A stretch of 47,450 bases of DNA from Cytophagales bacterium (GTDB taxonomy: Bacteria; Bacteroidota; Bacteroidia; Cytophagales; UBA9547), in assembly GCA_046152935.1 (NCBI GenBank), contig JBJXGB010000133.1:1-47450 (forward strand). The letters are read 5' to 3'. Below are positions 10,912 to 15,635 of this stretch, piece by piece; positions within the stretch are counted from its first letter, which is position 1, and each line of letters begins with the position of its first letter. The notes under the pieces are model-generated. The model worked only from the letters and a program-made list of their open reading frames with translations, did not search any database and had not been told where the DNA came from. The position numbers and the translations under genes are program-made.

Positions 10912-13900
10912 TTATACTTTCACCACTTCTTCTTTTTTCTTTTTTGATCCCAAGAATGCAAAATCGAGTACGATTGGCGATGCAATAAAGATAGACGAAT
11001 AGGTACCGAAAGTTACACCCACCAACATTACAAAAGAAAAGCCTCGCAATACTTCGCCACCATATACATACAGCACTGCTACTACCAAGAAAACTGTCAT
11101 CGCGGTGATTACCGTACGACTAAAGGTATTGTTGATCGCTAAATTGATGGTTGTAGCCATGTCTGCTTTTGGATTTTCATTTAAAAATTCACGCAAACGG
11201 TCAAAAACCACCACCGTATCATTGATAGAATATCCAATCAAAGTAAGGATGGCAGCAATGTAAATTTGGTCGATTTCAATATTTACACCGCACAAAGTCA
11301 TAACTCCAGTAAGGGCAAGCGACATCAACACATCATGTAAAAGTGCCACAATAGCTCCTAAACTGTATGACAGCCTGCGGAAACGGATAAATATATAGAG
11401 AAACACACCTAATAAAGACAAGCCCATCGAAAGTATAGACGTTTGTTTGATATCATCGGCAATGGTAGCACCAATTTTAGAACTGCTCAATATTTCTGGT
11501 TTTTGGGCTTGAAAAGCTATCAAACCATTGTTGAGCGTCTCCAACACTGTTTTATCTCCCTCTTCTGATTCATCATCTGAAAGATAACTTGTGGTGATTT
11601 TAAGTTTATTATTTGAACCGTAGGTTTTCACTTCTGTACCTGCACCTTTAAAGTCATCAACCAATTGCTCGCGGACTGCCGAAGCATCCATTGCATCAGT
11701 AAAACTTACTACATACGAACGCCCACCTTTGAAGTCGACCCCTAAATTCAAGCCACCTTGAATAAAAATACAAGTGAAACCAATGGCAATCACAACAGCG
11801 GAAAACATATAAGAGTATTTTCTATTTCCCACTACATTCACATTCATATCTCGCAAAACATTGGCTGTAAGCGGAATAGAGAAGGAAATTGCATTTGCGA
11901 ATGACGATTTTGCCCACCACTCCATCAAAATACGTGTCAAGAAAACAGAGGTAAAAAACGAGGTAGCAATACCAATCATCAAAGTAACGGCAAAGCCTTG
12001 CACGGGGCCAGAACCATAAATAGCAAGCACCACACCTACAATAAAGGTAGTGACGTTACCATCGACAATCGAGCTATTTGCCTTGCTATACCCAATGCTG
12101 ATGGCTTGCTGCAACGTTCGTCCCGCTCGCAGCTCTTCACGAATACGCTCGTAAATAAGTACGTTGGCATCGACTGCCATACCCAATGTCAATACAATAC
12201 CTGCAATACCTGGCAATGTCAGTACAGCCTGCATTTGTGCCATTATTCCCACCAAGAAAAATAAATTGACAAACAGTGCCAAATCGGCCACTACACCACC
12301 TGTGCTGTAATAAAAAACCATAAACACGATAACGGCAATAAGGCCAATCATGGTAGATAAATAGCCTTGGCTGATAGATTCTGCACCTAAAGATGGGCCT
12401 ACAATCGCCTCTTCAACAATACGGGTTGGAGCTGGAAGCTTACCAGCTTTCAAAATATTGGCTAAATCTTTTGCCTCTTCAATATCGAAATTGCCCGAAA
12501 TAGATGAACTACCGTTTGGAATTTCACCTTGTACCACTGGAGCAGAATACACATAATTGTCGAGCACAATTGCTATTCTGCGACCAATGCTAGATCCAGT
12601 AATTTTTCTCCATTTTTTCGCTCCAGACGCACTCATTTGCATATTTACTTCTGGTGTGCCATCTTGGCCAAAATCTTGGCGCGCATCTACAATTGCATCA
12701 CCATCTAAAGCAGCTTTTTCGCCACGGCCTTTTTTGATGAAATAAAGCGGCAAATATTCATTGCCATCTTCTGCCTTTATGCCTTTGGCTGCCCAAACGA
12801 TCCGCATATTTGAAGGCATAATACGTTGAATTTCAGGCAGATTGAATAATTTATTTACCTTACCAGTATCTACCACATTGGCACCTAAGCCACCATAAAT
12901 TGGCACAAATAGTTTTGAAACTGTCTTAGACTGAGTTTTTGAAGATGAATCGGCAGTAGCTACTTCTTTTGAAGACTTTGAAGAAATAAGACCAATAGAA
13001 TCGCCACCAGCAGCATTTTTGGGTGTAGAACCTGCAAATAATTCAGTTGAGGCATCTTTTGTGGTGTCTGTTGTTGTGCTTACTAAATTATCTGTGTTTG
13101 CAATGGTTGCATTGGTGTCTAAATTTGATTTGAAAACATCAAAGTTTTTGTCTTTCTTCTCGAGTTTGATGAGGTATTTATTCATCGACTCGAAATAGGG
13201 GCCAAATTTATCGCCTTCTATCACCTCGACAAACTCCAATTTGGCAGTTCCTTGCAACAATTTTCTAACCCTTTCTGGATTATCAACACCAGGCAATTCC
13301 AATTGTATTCTGCCTGTGCCTTTCAAACGTTGAATATTTGGTTGGTTTACCCCAAATTTGTCAATTCTTGTTCTTAATATTTGAAAAGAACGATCGATTG
13401 ACCCTTCAATTTCAGCGTCTAATACAGCCAAAACCTCCGCATCTGTCGAGTTTGGTGTTATTTTCGTCCTATTTGTTGTATTTCCAAATATTTGAGAAAA
13501 TTTAATATCAGGATTCAATTCTTTGTACGAAGACAAAAATAGTGAAGTAAATTTTTGGTTACTAGTGGCCGATTTTTGCACAGCCGTTTGCAGTGCTTTG
13601 TCGAAATTGGGGTCAGCAGAATTGCCCGCCATTCCGCGTACTATTTCTACGGGCGATACTTCCATTACCACGTGCATGCCGCCTTGCAAATCGAGACCCA
13701 AGTGCAATTCCTGCTCTTTTATCTGCTTGTAAGTCCAAGAAATGCCTAGAAACTCAAAAGCTGGTTTTGTCCAGAGCGAATCTAAATAGGCTTGTCTTTT
13801 TGCGTAGTTGATTTTGCCAGATTCATCTGTGGCATACGCTTCCGAATCTGCTTTTATGCCATTAGATATGAAGGTGTAGGATAAAAAATATCCACATATA

Positions 13901-13947
13901 ATAGTCAGAACCGCTGTTACGATTAAGACACCGAGTTTGTTTTTCAT
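10912..13947 (-). CDS. secDF: protein translocase subunit SecDF (fused)
   Basis: LGLDLQGG, RIDKFGVNQPNIQ, VDANVLIYERIRE, LGVDFKGG and GYSINDTVVVFDRLRE motifs. Confidence 0.97.
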   Translation of the reverse strand: MKNKLGVLIVTAVLTIICGYFLSYTFISNGIKADSEAYATDESGKINYAKRQAYLDSLWTKPAFEFLGISWTYKQIKEQELHLGLDLQGGMHVVMEVSPVEIVRGMAGNSADPNFDKALQTAVQKSATSNQKFTSLFLSSYKELNPDIKFSQIFGNTTNRTKITPNSTDAEVLAVLDAEIEGSIDRSFQILRTRIDKFGVNQPNIQRLKGTGRIQLELPGVDNPERVRKLLQGTAKLEFVEVIEGDKFGPYFESMNKYLIKLEKKDKNFDVFKSNLDTNATIANTDNLVSTTTDTTKDASTELFAGSTPKNAAGGDSIGLISSKSSKEVATADSSSKTQSKTVSKLFVPIYGGLGANVVDTGKVNKLFNLPEIQRIMPSNMRIVWAAKGIKAEDGNEYLPLYFIKKGRGEKAALDGDAIVDARQDFGQDGTPEVNMQMSASGAKKWRKITGSSIGRRIAIVLDNYVYSAPVVQGEIPNGSSSISGNFDIEEAKDLANILKAGKLPAPTRIVEEAIVGPSLGAESISQGYLSTMIGLIAVIVFMVFYYSTGGVVADLALFVNLFFLVGIMAQMQAVLTLPGIAGIVLTLGMAVDANVLIYERIREELRAGRTLQQAISIGYSKANSSIVDGNVTTFIVGVVLAIYGSGPVQGFAVTLMIGIATSFFTSVFLTRILMEWWAKSSFANAISFSIPLTANVLRDMNVNVVGNRKYSYMFSAVVIAIGFTCIFIQGGLNLGVDFKGGRSYVVSFTDAMDASAVREQLVDDFKGAGTEVKTYGSNNKLKITTSYLSDDESEEGDKTVLETLNNGLIAFQAQKPEILSSSKIGATIADDIKQTSILSMGLSLLGVFLYIFIRFRRLSYSLGAIVALLHDVLMSLALTGVMTLCGVNIEIDQIYIAAILTLIGYSINDTVVVFDRLREFLNENPKADMATTINLAINNTFSRTVITAMTVFLVVAVLYVYGGEVLRGFSFVMLVGVTFGTYSSIFIASPIVLDFAFLGSKKKKEEVVKV

Positions 13948-14019
13948 TTTGATCTTGAGATAGTTGAAAATTGATAAATTGAATGTGCTAATTAAAAAAT
14001 ACTGCTCTGCGAGCGAATG

Positions 14020-14355
14020 TTAAGGGGCATTTGCCCGTGAAATTCTGCTAAAAAGTATCGTTTTAAAAGTATTTGGAAACTCTGGAAAAAAATATTGTGC
14101 AACAATCCCATGAGCTAAATTGAACTCAAAACTAAAAAGTATGATCGAAAAACGGTGAATACTATTTTGAAAAATGGAGGTAGTAGCTTCAAAAGAGACA
14201 GATTCTACGATTGTTTCCTCTTGCTGGCTTGCGCAATTTTCTGTCGCTGCCTTTTTACTTTTCTTTGCAAGACCTTGATTATTAGCCGAATACCCTGCCA
14301 AAAGAAGCGCAAAAGCAATTAAAAAAATGAGTAATTTGTAAAAAACTGACTTCAA
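14020..14355 (-). CDS. secDF upstream ORF with signal/TM segment ending ...SRANAP-stop; candidate translation-arrest peptide. Start uncertain: TTG 14355 preferred, frame open to 14469
   Basis: Hydrophobic LLIFLIAFALLLAGYSA segment; C-terminal N-A-P-stop; ends 72 nt before the secDF ATG on the same strand. Confidence 0.65.
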   Translation of the reverse strand: MKSVFYKLLIFLIAFALLLAGYSANNQGLAKKSKKAATENCASQQEETIVESVSFEATTSIFQNSIHRFSIILFSFEFNLAHGIVAQYFFPEFPNTFKTILFSRISRANAP

Positions 14356-14669
14356 CGTAATAGAAATAGGCTGCGAATATAGATGCGAAGTTTTGAATAA
14401 CCAATAATCGATCTTATTCATTTGGGCTTTTAGGTAAATTGATATGATTTCCTGCTCGTATTTTGCCAATAATTTTACATTTCAATTTACTTGCTATAAA
14501 TAGAATCTCATAGATCGAACATAGATTTGTTTTGATCGACAAATACCCTTGTTTGGGCAGAATTAAAACCCAAATACATCGAAATACAACCATTTATGGC
14601 ATTACATAGCACTTGAAAAATCGTATCTATTTAAAAATTAACACTTTTTTAAATTTTATTTCCACTGTA

Positions 14670-15635
14670 ATGAACGAAGAAAAAGAAATATGGAAAGAGA
14701 CGAATATTGATACCAATTTTGGTTTTACGATATTCATATCGAACCTAGGAAATGCCAAAAGAGTGCTAATTAAAACCGGTGAAGAAAAGCCGATTGTGCT
14801 AAAATTTAACCAAAGTACCAATAGAATTGATCTCAATAAAATGCTAAAAGGCGACAATGGAATTCAAAAGCGAATTGCTTACAAACAATCGCTCCATAAG
14901 TTGGTGGCCCATTTATTTATTCCAAATCCTTTTCCTGAAACACTTACTGAGGTAGTTCACTTAGATAGAAATGTGGCCAATAATCACTGCAAAAACCTAA
15001 AATGGGTCAATAAAAATGAGTTTAGAGTGCACCATTCAAATTATTTGAAGGGAAAAGCTGCTGAAAAATTGATTTTTTTTGCTTCTGAACGATTTAAAGA
15101 TTTTCACTTTGATACGCTACGAAAAAGAATATACGCGGTGTCGAATTTTGGAAGAATTGTCATTTATAAAGAGGATATTGAAGATGGGTATTTGTTGAAA
15201 TTTAATCAGAAAGAGGTGATCCGTACGCCTTACATTATTTTGCGACCTAACGACCCTTCGATGGAACGCAAGGTAATTTACGTGCATCAATTGGTGGCTG
15301 CTTATTTTTTACCTACAAAAAAACAAGACCAAATCTGCGTAGTTCATCTCGATCACAACCACGAGAACAACCATTATTCAAATTTAAAATGGACTACCTT
15401 TGATGAAAAATACGCACATTCTCGCCAAAGCCCGAGAGTGAGAGCTGTGCAGGGCGATTTGATGCAACAGGGCACTAAATTGAGCAAAACGCAAGTAATT
15501 CACATAAAAAGGCTGATTGCGAAAGGCAAGATGCGAAACAAAATGATCGCCAAACAATTTGGCATTTCAGAAATGTCGATCTACCGAATAAAAAGAGGCG
15601 AGGCTTGGGCACATGTGAAATTGGAAAATGAATAA
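14670..15635 (+). CDS. protein with two tandem NUMOD4 + HNH-type modules and a C-terminal HTH (ATG 14670 preferred over TTG 14613)
   Basis: EIWKE..ISNLG / ERFKD..VSNFGR; LHKLVAHLF..VVHLD..NN..NLKW / VHQLVAAYF..VVHLD..NN..NLKW; IAKQFGISEMSIYRIKRGEAWAHV. Confidence 0.8.
   Translation: MNEEKEIWKETNIDTNFGFTIFISNLGNAKRVLIKTGEEKPIVLKFNQSTNRIDLNKMLKGDNGIQKRIAYKQSLHKLVAHLFIPNPFPETLTEVVHLDRNVANNHCKNLKWVNKNEFRVHHSNYLKGKAAEKLIFFASERFKDFHFDTLRKRIYAVSNFGRIVIYKEDIEDGYLLKFNQKEVIRTPYIILRPNDPSMERKVIYVHQLVAAYFLPTKKQDQICVVHLDHNHENNHYSNLKWTTFDEKYAHSRQSPRVRAVQGDLMQQGTKLSKTQVIHIKRLIAKGKMRNKMIAKQFGISEMSIYRIKRGEAWAHVKLENE

What the first reader, a model, noticed from the sequence alone, without database searches (positions are those of the whole stretch)
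14020..14355. Candidate secretion-monitoring arrest peptide (NAP-stop) upstream of secDF
Seen: a same-strand uORF ending 72 nt before secDF, with a signal-like hydrophobic segment and C-terminus ILFSRISRANAP-stop. Established: SecM, MifM, VemP and ApdA/ApdP are uORFs of this design whose ribosome stalling tunes downstream sec/yidC genes. From memory, NAP-stop uORFs upstream of secDF have been reported in Bacteroidota (ApdF); this needs verifying. Inference: this is such a sensor, with an R-A-N-A-P end reminiscent of RAPP-like motifs, and would normally be labelled hypothetical.
Basis: partly seen in the sequence, partly recalled or inferred. Interest (0 to 1): 0.7.

Follow-up and report, generated by a model that had tools for sequence, protein, structure and literature searches.

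The report
Known NAP-stop arrest leader of secDF
A small exported leader peptide ending in Asn-Ala-Pro-stop sits just before the protein-export gene secDF; it belongs to a ribosome-stalling peptide family published in 2024, so the find is real but not new, and how the stall reaches secDF is still unknown.

Summary
On the minus strand, an ORF (TTG 14355 to TAA 14020-14022, 111 codons) has an N-terminal hydrophobic signal or anchor. It ends ...ILFSRISRANAP-stop, 72 nt before the secDF ATG (13947).

It is a member of the published uDF_NAP-stop family (Fujiwara et al. 2024, Nat Commun 15:2711). A Cytophagales member of that family stalls ribosomes in vitro with the stop codon in the A site. The name 'ApdF' does not exist in the searched literature.

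An equivalent uORF ending [N/K/Q/R/H][A/G]P-stop precedes secDF in 21 of 21 evaluable genomes of the window's family, and in other Cytophagales families. It is the only one of 6,930 long ORFs in this genome with that ending.

The 'RAPP-like' Arg at -5 is seen in only two of the sequences examined and is not a family trait.

New details:
- A Bacteroidetes -7 promoter box lies just upstream of the uORF.
- The -3 residue varies naturally.
- Folding does not predict a SecM-style unmasking of the secDF start.
- Runs of T are enriched just after the stop codon.

The step that couples the stall to secDF is still only inferred. Verdict: new member of a known kind, low to moderate interest.

The parts
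14374..14381 (-). Bacteroidetes-type -7 promoter-like box TATATTCG, 19-26 nt upstream of the uORF start; implies a leader of only about 10 nt
   Evidence: TAnnTT[TC]G lies 16-27 nt upstream of the inferred uORF start in 13 of 18 family loci (0.018 expected per such window, P about 1e-19). It is conserved as TACCTTCG in the same-genus relative. Promoter activity is inferred, not shown.
14020..14355 (-). uORF: TTG start at 14355, 111 codons, stop TAA at 14020-14022. MKSVFYKLLIFLIAFALLLAGYSANNQG...NTFKTILFSRISRANAP
   Evidence: The TTG is conserved in the same-genus relative, while the upstream ATG 14421 used by the public gene call (133 aa) is not. dN/dS is 0.15.
14290..14334 (-). Hydrophobic core of the N-terminal signal peptide or signal anchor (L8-Y22)
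   Evidence: Kyte-Doolittle peak 2.74. In 40 relatives the peak centre lies 89-118 residues (most between 90 and 104) before the C-terminus. No dedicated signal-peptide predictor was available.
14170..14199 (-). Conserved mid-peptide block VSFEATTSIF (family pattern h-x-h-[E/D]-A-[V/T]-[V/I]-[P/S]), about 55 residues before the C-terminus
   Evidence: E56-A57-T58 are invariant in the window's clade. An equivalent block (VAVDAVVPF) is present in Cyclobacteriaceae. Function unknown.
14023..14073 (-). C-terminal arrest block NTFKTILFSRISRANAP (N95-P111)
   Evidence: (38 distinct C-termini): -1 P 38/38; -2 A31/G7; -3 N20 K6 Q6 R3 H3; -6 I 31; -8 R14/H10; -10 F27; -11 L28. The window deviates at -6 (S) and -5 (R). 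The published N(-3)A and P(-1)A substitutions abolish the stall in the tested member.
14020..14022 (-). Stop codon TAA: the predicted A-site codon of the stalled ribosome
   Evidence: Published toeprints of uDF_NAP-stop place the stop codon in the A site, and removing the stop abolishes the arrest. All three stop codons are used in relatives (TAA 17, TAG 14, TGA 9).
13948..14019 (-). 72-nt spacer between the uORF and secDF. It has no promoter box, and its last 47 nt are G-poor (4% G)
   Evidence: The spacer is 62-310 nt in 40 loci and never shorter than 62. No TAnnTTTG box occurs in 35 of 37 spacers.
13994..13999 (-). T6 run 21-26 nt after the stop codon, preceded by a weak 4-bp hairpin GCTCgcaGAGC (14004-14014)
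   Evidence: a run of at least 5 T starts within 30 nt after the stop in 22 of 37 loci, against 8% of later spacer windows and 20% after long ORFs of this genome. It is not preceded by a significant hairpin. Function unexplained.
10912..13947 (-). secDF (fused SecD-SecF, 1011 aa), the presumed regulated gene

Best explanation
The ORF at 14020-14355 (minus strand) is the first cistron of a uORF-secDF operon. It encodes a member of the uDF_NAP-stop family of regulatory arrest peptides.

Shown by sequence and comparison:
- A promoter-like -7 box lies just upstream.
- The 111-residue peptide has an N-terminal signal or anchor, a charged linker, a conserved middle block and a conserved C-terminal block ending N-A-P-stop.
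- secDF lies 72 nt downstream, with no promoter box in between.

Taken from the published family, not shown here: when the ribosome reaches the stop codon with Pro-tRNA in the P site, the nascent chain in the exit tunnel prevents release. The ribosome therefore parks on the stop codon.

Inferred by analogy with SecM, VemP and MifM: export of the N-terminal part by the Sec machinery pulls on the chain and releases the stall. Stall duration would then report low export activity and raise SecDF synthesis.

The coupling step is the weakest link. Bacteroidia ribosomes do not use Shine-Dalgarno sequences, and folding predicts no stall-dependent opening of the secDF start. I therefore favour, at only about 0.3, a TnaC-like route. 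In it, the parked ribosome shields the G-poor, T-rich RNA just after the stop codon from Rho or an endonuclease, so that full-length uORF-secDF mRNA accumulates.
For: - Context and motif.
- Family identity: the published definition and experiments are in PMC10987492. The tested member comes from Echinicola vietnamensis, a Cytophagales member of Cyclobacteriaceae.
- Conservation: four close relatives carry the same architecture. A profile of these five finds uORFs ending [NKQ][AG]P-stop with secDF 60-310 nt downstream in 26 further loci of several Cytophagales families, including named Cyclobacteriaceae.
- Prevalence: 21 of 21 evaluable genomes (12 genera) of the window's family have it.
- Uniqueness: it is the only ORF with this ending in the genome.
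- Selection: dN/dS is 0.15.
- Operon structure: a -7 box lies upstream of the uORF and none in the spacer.
- Coupling: no predicted unmasking of the start region. T-runs and pyrimidines are enriched just after the stop.
Against: - No experiment or transcript data exist for this organism; only DNA metagenome runs were found.
- The window's peptide deviates from the consensus at -6 (S instead of I) and -5 (R). Its stalling strength is therefore unknown.
- The published family was tested only in E. coli and B. subtilis translation systems. Neither export-dependent release nor secDF induction has been shown for any NAP-stop member.
- The T-run tendency is not universal: 22/37, 4/11 and 41/80, and the loci are phylogenetically related.
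- The T-run has no fixed distance from the stop.
- Nothing tests Rho or RNase involvement.
Confidence: 0.78

Rival explanations
1. Same arrest peptide, but coupled to secDF in the classical SecM/MifM/ErmC way. The parked ribosome, or a queue behind it, remodels mRNA structure so that the secDF start region becomes accessible to initiating ribosomes.
For: This is the only mechanism shown for a secDF-upstream arrest peptide in the same paper, uDF_RQH_Enterobacterales. In Bacteroidia, initiation is tuned by mRNA structure (PMC6847099 abstract). In the window itself, predicted start-region accessibility rises slightly, from 0.41 to 0.52, when three ribosome footprints are imposed. A hairpin of variable sequence is conserved in the spacer of Cyclobacteriaceae (mean z -2.5).
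Against: Across 37 loci the mean unpaired probability of the secDF start region is 0.55 free and 0.56 stalled (Wilcoxon p=0.45). With one footprint in 26 loci the mean change is 0.008. The last 30-40 nt before the ATG are almost free of G and intrinsically weakly structured. The window's spacer has no significant structure (z -0.16; z -0.68). Thermodynamic models ignore kinetics and proteins.
Confidence: 0.22
2. The ORF encodes a small membrane or exported protein with its own function, for instance an accessory partner of SecDF. The C-terminal motif would serve that function, and ribosome stalling would be irrelevant or marginal in vivo.
For: The peptide is about 110 residues long. It has a conserved middle block and a moderately hydrophobic region beyond what a pure sensor seems to need. 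YajC-like small membrane proteins do precede secDF in other bacteria (own knowledge). In vitro stalling of the tested member was only 30-50% in the E. coli system and above 50% in the B. subtilis system.
Against: There is no Pfam match to YajC or any other family, and a canonical YajC is encoded elsewhere in the genome (C134, E=4e-28). The strongest conservation is in the last 12 residues, with an invariant terminal Pro directly before the stop. That pattern is expected for a tunnel-acting arrest sequence and was shown to stall in the published member.
Confidence: 0.08
3. A chance ORF in an AT-rich intergenic region, with no biological role.
For: None beyond the absence of annotation and of database homologues in the direct searches.
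Against: The ORF stays open for about 110 codons in 21 of 21 family genomes, and its ends are conserved. dN/dS is 0.15. It is the only ORF of 6,930 with this ending. A promoter box is placed correctly upstream.
Confidence: 0.01

Closest known systems
uDF_NAP-stop arrest peptides (Fujiwara, Tsuji, Yoshida, Takada, Chiba 2024, Nat Commun 15:2711; PMC10987492)
   Same: A same-strand uORF directly upstream of secDF in Bacteroidota, with an N-terminal localisation signal and a C-terminus N-A-P immediately followed by a stop. The length (111 aa, against 125 aa for the tested Echinicola vietnamensis member) and the order (Cytophagales) match. The C-terminal block is conserved.
   Different: This is a divergent sequence from an uncultured Cytophagales family: 26-31% identity even to other genera of its own family. 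It has S at -6 and R at -5 instead of the consensus I and S/P. It uses a TTG start. Relatives show that -3 can be N, K, Q, R or H and -2 can be A or G, which is broader than the family name suggests.
uA_NSP-stop (same paper; upstream of secA in Sphingobacteriaceae)
   Same: A peptide with a C-terminal Pro that stalls the ribosome at its own stop codon. Positions -3 (N) and -1 (P) are essential. It is restricted to Bacteroidota.
   Different: The downstream gene is secA and the motif is N-S-P. This genome has no such uORF upstream of secA.
TnaC leader of the E. coli tna operon (own knowledge)
   Same: The ribosome is arrested at termination, with peptidyl-tRNA(Pro) in the P site and a stop codon in the A site. 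The parked ribosome acts on the untranslated RNA next to the stop codon.
   Different: TnaC is 24 residues, has no export signal, needs free tryptophan, and is known to act by blocking Rho loading. None of this is shown here, and there is no sequence similarity. It is a model for the mechanism, not a family assignment.
SecM, VemP, MifM (Sec/YidC monitoring substrates)
   Same: An exported or membrane-inserted leader peptide whose arrest is thought to be released by the export machinery and to control a downstream sec or yidC gene. VemP also controls a secDF paralogue.
   Different: They stall during elongation at internal motifs. Their sequences are unrelated (no Pfam hit). They act by exposing a Shine-Dalgarno sequence, a signal that Bacteroidia ribosomes do not read (PMC7797042).
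ApdA/ApdP and the RQH (RAPP-like) family
   Same: uORFs upstream of secDF with an N-terminal signal and a Pro-containing C-terminal arrest motif.
   Different: Their defining R/Q/H-A/G-P-P/G motif stalls in elongation. Here there is no Pro-Pro, Arg at -5 is seen in only two of the sequences examined, and the family stall needs the stop codon.

Membership tests
uDF_NAP-stop | ORF immediately upstream of secDF on the same strand | tested here: met
   The stop codon is at 14020-14022 and the secDF ATG at 13947, both on the minus strand, with a 72-nt gap.
uDF_NAP-stop | Predicted N-terminal localisation signal (signal peptide or TM segment) | tested here: met
   M-K followed by a 15-20 residue hydrophobic core, Kyte-Doolittle peak 2.74. 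This rests on hydropathy only; no SignalP or TMHMM was available, so cleaved signal and signal anchor cannot be told apart.
uDF_NAP-stop | C-terminal Pro directly followed by the stop codon, within an N-A-P motif | tested here: met
   ...SRANAP-TAA.
uDF_NAP-stop | C-terminal motif conserved among orthologous uORFs while the rest diverges | tested here: met
   The terminal P is present in 38 of 38 distinct C-termini, and the block I-L-F-x-R/H-I-I-S/P-P/T-x-A/G-P is conserved at 26-56% overall identity. It is present in 21 of 21 evaluable family genomes.
uDF_NAP-stop | Bacteroidota lineage (subsets of three orders) | tested here: met
   The nearest named relatives are Cytophagales MAGs. The distribution across the class is patchy: present in four of about 42 sampled families.
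uDF_NAP-stop | Sequence relatedness to the experimentally tested member (Echinicola vietnamensis, Cyclobacteriaceae) | tested here: inconclusive
   A profile built from the window's clade retrieves uORFs of Cyclobacteriaceae genera (Belliella, Algoriphagus, Litoribacter) at E 1e-4 to 2e-7, with the same secDF context. The Echinicola sequence itself was not at hand for a direct comparison.
uDF_NAP-stop | Ribosome stalls with the stop codon in the A site; depends on -3 N, -1 P and the stop codon | not testable with these tools
   Published for one member only. It needs in vitro translation or toeprinting of this peptide.
Sec-monitoring substrate (functional class) | Arrest released by export, and arrest raises expression of the downstream gene | not testable with these tools
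   Not shown for any NAP-stop member in the paper. No RNA data exist for this organism or for the relatives tried.
RQH / RAPP-like arrest peptides (ApdA, ApdP) | Conserved R/Q/H-A/G-P-P/G motif at the arrest point | tested here: not met
   There is no Pro-Pro or Gly-Pro-Pro. Arg at -5 occurs in 1 of 38 distinct C-termini plus L064.
YajC (PF02699) | Match to the YajC profile | tested here: not met
   The uORF has no Pfam hit above threshold. A canonical YajC lies elsewhere in the genome.

The most novel reading that the evidence does not exclude
In Bacteroidia, whose ribosomes ignore Shine-Dalgarno sequences, NAP-stop leaders may not act by unmasking a ribosome-binding site. They may instead act as TnaC-like termination-stall attenuators. 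The ribosome parked on the stop codon would shield the adjacent G-poor, T- or pyrimidine-rich tract from Rho or an endonuclease. In Cyclobacteriaceae that tract is followed by a hairpin of conserved structure. The stall would thereby decide whether full-length uORF-secDF mRNA is made or survives.
Probability: 0.25. Interest if true: 0.6.

Novelty: new member of a known kind. Interest (0 to 1): 0.27.

Why it matters
For annotation, an unnamed 133-aa 'hypothetical' gene call can be replaced. The replacement is a 111-codon regulatory leader (TTG start) of the secDF operon, and the same holds for every genome of this uncultured Cytophagales family.

For the field, the value lies in the by-products.
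- The motif is broader than its name: [N/K/Q/R/H][A/G]P-stop.
- The leader is universal within a family.
- The comparative data argue against the textbook start-site-unmasking model, and they point to a T-rich tract next to the stop codon.

This bears on an open question, namely how a termination stall is transmitted to the downstream gene in bacteria that lack Shine-Dalgarno-guided initiation. It does not answer it.

Tried and rejected
1. A direct search for relatives of the uORF peptide in genome contigs found nothing, because the sequence evolves too fast. Relatives were reached through secDF instead.
2. SecM-like unmasking was tested by partition-function folding with one or three ribosome footprints imposed. 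There was no consistent change (the first attempt timed out).
3. A hairpin spanning the stop codon is no better than shuffles or swapped partners.
4. The T-run as the tail of an intrinsic terminator: no significant hairpin precedes it, and the consensus scan finds no terminator.
5. An internal secDF promoter: there is no -7 box in 35 of 37 spacers.
6. YajC identity was rejected.
7. A second copy of the leader elsewhere in the genome, or leaders upstream of secA or yidC: none.
8. Rfam gave only sub-threshold chance hits.
9. RNAalifold on a MAFFT alignment of 46 Cyclobacteriaceae spacers gave no pairs, because the variable arms were not aligned in register. The hairpin was shown instead by per-sequence folding against shuffles (an earlier, slower script timed out).
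10. Transcript evidence: only DNA runs were found for the window and for two cultured relatives.
11. The name 'ApdF' was not found.

Full report
**1. The observation**

The minus strand carries an ORF that ends with TAA at 14020-14022. Its last residues are ...NTFKTILFSRISRANAP. The next gene on the same strand starts with ATG at 13947. It is a fused secDF of 1011 aa (Pfam SecD_SecF_C E=5e-72, SecDF_P1_head E=3e-30, SecD_1st, Sec_GG). The gap is exactly 72 nt.

It is followed by K-SVFYKLLIFLIAFALLLAGYS, a classical positive residue plus hydrophobic core (Kyte-Doolittle peak 2.74). The only addition is that everything lies on the minus strand.

**2. The true start**

The frame is open up to 14481, and a gene caller chose ATG 14421 (133 aa, unnamed).

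Aligning the upstream DNA with the same-genus relative shows that the TTG is conserved, whereas the ATG is ATA there. Relatives of other genera in the same family start with ATG at the equivalent position, right before the hydrophobic core (MKK...). The leader is therefore 111 codons long.

A Bacteroidetes -7 promoter box (TAnnTTTG, here TATATTCG at 14374-14381) lies 16-27 nt upstream of the inferred start in 13 of 18 family loci. The chance expectation is 0.018 per such window (P about 1e-19). The box is absent from 35 of 37 uORF-secDF spacers. The simplest reading is one promoter, a leader of about 10 nt, then uORF, spacer and secDF. This is inferred from sequence, without transcript data.

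**3. It is real and conserved**

The peptide has no detectable relatives in a direct search and no Pfam family. I therefore used secDF to reach relatives.

- Close relatives: all four carry a same-strand upstream ORF of 109-112 codons with the same layout, ending VNAP, TKAP, ANAP and ANAP.
- Profile search: a profile of these five, searched in 401 genomes of the order, gave 39 hits. Of the 30 loci returned, 27 are ORFs ending [N/K/Q][A/G]P-stop. Of these, 26 have secDF 60-310 nt downstream and the 27th runs off its contig.
- Family census: starting from secDF, 21 of 22 genomes (12 genera) have such an ORF. The 22nd contig ends 113 nt upstream of secDF.
- C-terminal pattern over 38 distinct C-termini: the terminal residue is always Pro; -2 is A (31) or G (7); -3 is N (20), K, Q, R or H. 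Positions -12 to -6 read I-L-F-x-R/H-I/F-I.
- Rest of the peptide: identity falls to 26-31% between genera of the family.
- Selection: against the same-genus relative, dN/dS is about 0.15, with dS saturated.
- Uniqueness: of 6,930 ORFs of at least 80 codons in the window's genome, only this one ends [NKQRH][AG]P. At a 40-codon cut-off, seven of 32,415 do, and none of the other six has the extended block.

Chance is excluded.

**4. What it is**

The family is published: 'uDF_NAP-stop' in Fujiwara et al. 2024 (PMC10987492). That paper describes the following.

- 396 uORFs from 400 genomes, in subsets of three orders of Bacteroidota.
- All lie upstream of secDF, have an N-terminal localisation signal, and end in N-A-P.
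- One member, from Echinicola vietnamensis (Cytophagales, Cyclobacteriaceae; 125 aa), accumulated as peptidyl-tRNA in E. coli (30-50%) and B. subtilis (above 50%) PURE systems.
- Toeprints placed the stop codon in the A site.
- N123A, P125A and removal of the stop codon reduced the arrest.

The window's ORF meets every sequence-level criterion. My profile links it to named Cyclobacteriaceae uORFs (Belliella, Algoriphagus, Aquiflexum and others).

The name 'ApdF' does not occur in the paper, nor as an arrest peptide anywhere in the library. 'NAP-stop' occurs only in that work.

A class-wide sample of 76 secDF upstream regions from about 42 families reproduces the published patchiness. The uORF is present in Cyclobacteriaceae (6/6), one further Cytophagales family, and two families outside the order (endings ...PALAP...PAQAP...PFRAP). 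It is absent elsewhere.

**5. What it is not**

- Not YajC: there is no profile match, and a canonical YajC is encoded on another contig.
- Not RAPP-like: Arg at -5 is found in only one other locus examined, there is no Pro-Pro, and the family stall is at termination.
- No second copy exists in this genome, and no comparable leader precedes secA or yidC.
- Rfam finds nothing in the region.

**6. How it works: shown and inferred**

Shown here: the architecture and its conservation.

Shown elsewhere for a relative: the stall at the stop codon.

Inferred by analogy with SecM, VemP and MifM: the Sec machinery engages the N-terminal signal and pulls the chain, ending the stall, so that stall duration reports export capacity and raises SecDF. 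Two features fit this. The hydrophobic core sits at a fairly constant 89-118 residues (most between 90 and 104) from the C-terminus. A second conserved block, [E/D]-A-[V/T]-[V/I]-[P/S], lies about 55 residues from the end, so it would sit just outside the exit tunnel of a stalled ribosome. This second block may be a further regulatory or force-transmitting element, but that is speculation.

**7. The coupling step**

The paper showed downstream induction only for an unrelated proteobacterial RGPP peptide, through a hairpin that masks a Shine-Dalgarno sequence. Bacteroidia ribosomes do not read Shine-Dalgarno sequences. There, initiation is tuned by structure and by A-rich upstream positions (PMC7797042 and PMC6847099 abstracts).

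I tested the unmasking idea by partition-function folding with the ribosome footprint forced single-stranded.

- One ribosome: across 26 loci the mean change in unpaired probability of the secDF start region was 0.008.
- Three queued ribosomes and the whole uORF: across 37 loci, 0.55 against 0.56 (p=0.45). In the window itself the change was 0.41 to 0.52.
- The window's spacer has no significant structure.
- A hairpin spanning the stop codon is no better than shuffles.
- The consensus scan finds no terminator.

Two other spacer features stand out.

- T-runs: a run of at least five T starts within 30 nt after the stop in 22 of 37 loci (the window has T6 at 13994-13999). This compares with 8% of later spacer windows and 20% after long ORFs of this genome. 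A second Cytophagales and outgroup set gave 4 of 11, and named Cyclobacteriaceae gave 41 of 80. These runs are not preceded by significant hairpins.
- Composition: in Cyclobacteriaceae the first 25 nt are 71% pyrimidine and 8% G. They are followed by a hairpin whose sequence varies but whose stability is well above shuffles (mean z -2.5; 68% below -2). Then comes a conserved, nearly G-free A/U-rich 35 nt. In the window's own family the hairpin is inconsistent (mean z -1.5; window -0.16).
- Length: the spacer is never shorter than 62 nt.

A ribosome parked on a stop codon next to naked, G-poor RNA is the TnaC situation (own knowledge). I therefore rank the coupling models as follows.

| Coupling model | Probability |
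|---|---|
| Shielding of this tract from Rho or a nuclease | about 0.3 |
| Structural unmasking of the secDF start | about 0.2 |
| Something else, or no regulation | the remainder |

None of this is tested. The loci are phylogenetically related, so the enrichment statistics overstate independence.

**8. Transcript evidence**

None could be had. The window is found only in DNA runs of a biofilter metagenome at low depth. Runs holding two cultured relatives' loci were genome assemblies.

**9. Earlier notes of this scan**

Notes on other genomes reached the same family assignment. I treated them as leads only. One reported a second leader before an antiporter gene, and there is none here.

**10. 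Verdict**

The feature is a new, divergent member of a known kind. Interest is low to moderate. It rests mainly on the comparative hints about the still-open coupling mechanism and on the broadened motif definition.

Noticed in passing
window 13994-13999 (minus strand); spacers of L010-L056 and L138-L217: A run of at least five T begins within 30 nt after the arrest stop codon in 22 of 37, 4 of 11 and 41 of 80 loci. The baselines are 8% of later spacer windows and 20% after long ORFs of this genome. No hairpin precedes it, so it is not a classical terminator tail. In Cyclobacteriaceae the first 25 nt after the stop are 71% pyrimidine and 8% G.
   Followed up: partly
L138-L217, about +25 to +55 after the uORF stop: Nearly all 80 Cyclobacteriaceae uORF-secDF spacers hold a hairpin whose sequence differs between genera but whose stability exceeds shuffles (mean z -2.5). 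It is followed by a conserved TGTATTT...CAATYAAT A/U-rich, G-free stretch before the secDF ATG. No U-tract follows the hairpin. No formal covariation model was built. The window itself has only a weak 4-bp stem (14004-14014).
   Followed up: partly
window 14374-14381 (minus strand): A Bacteroidetes -7 promoter-like box, TATATTCG, lies 19-26 nt before the TTG start. The same placement (TAnnTTTG, 16-27 nt upstream) holds in 13 of 18 family loci, which implies a very short 5' leader for the uORF.
   Followed up: partly
window 14356-14421 (minus strand): The public gene call for this ORF starts at ATG 14421 (133 aa). Comparison with relatives indicates the TTG at 14355 (111 aa), so the call is probably 22 codons too long.
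   Followed up: yes
40 related loci: Natural variation at the arrest tripeptide: NAP 20, KGP 7, QAP 5, HAP 3, RAP 2, and KAP, RGP and QGP 1 each. The -3 Asn that is essential in the tested member is therefore often replaced by K, Q, H or R in nature, with G at -2 going together mostly with K or Q at -3.
   Followed up: partly
L001 (same-genus relative), spacer +8 to about +130: The same-genus relative has a 256-nt spacer instead of 72 nt. It contains a perfect 20-nt inverted repeat (AATGCGTAATTATTAATTAT ... ATAATTAATAATTACGCATT), which looks like a small insertion of a hairpin-forming element. Its record title calls the MAG 'uncultured Bifidobacteriaceae', which conflicts with its Cytophagales-like secDF and leader.
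   Followed up: no
L074, L075 (family code f30, outside Cytophagales): Short ORFs of 80-96 codons upstream of secDF end in ...NFKPP-stop and ...ATIANP-stop. They may be a different Pro-stop leader variant or may be chance.
   Followed up: no
window 14613-15635 (plus strand): The divergently transcribed neighbour is a 340-aa protein with HNH_3 and resolvase-type HTH domains. It is already flagged by another note of this scan and is unrelated to the secDF leader.
   Followed up: no
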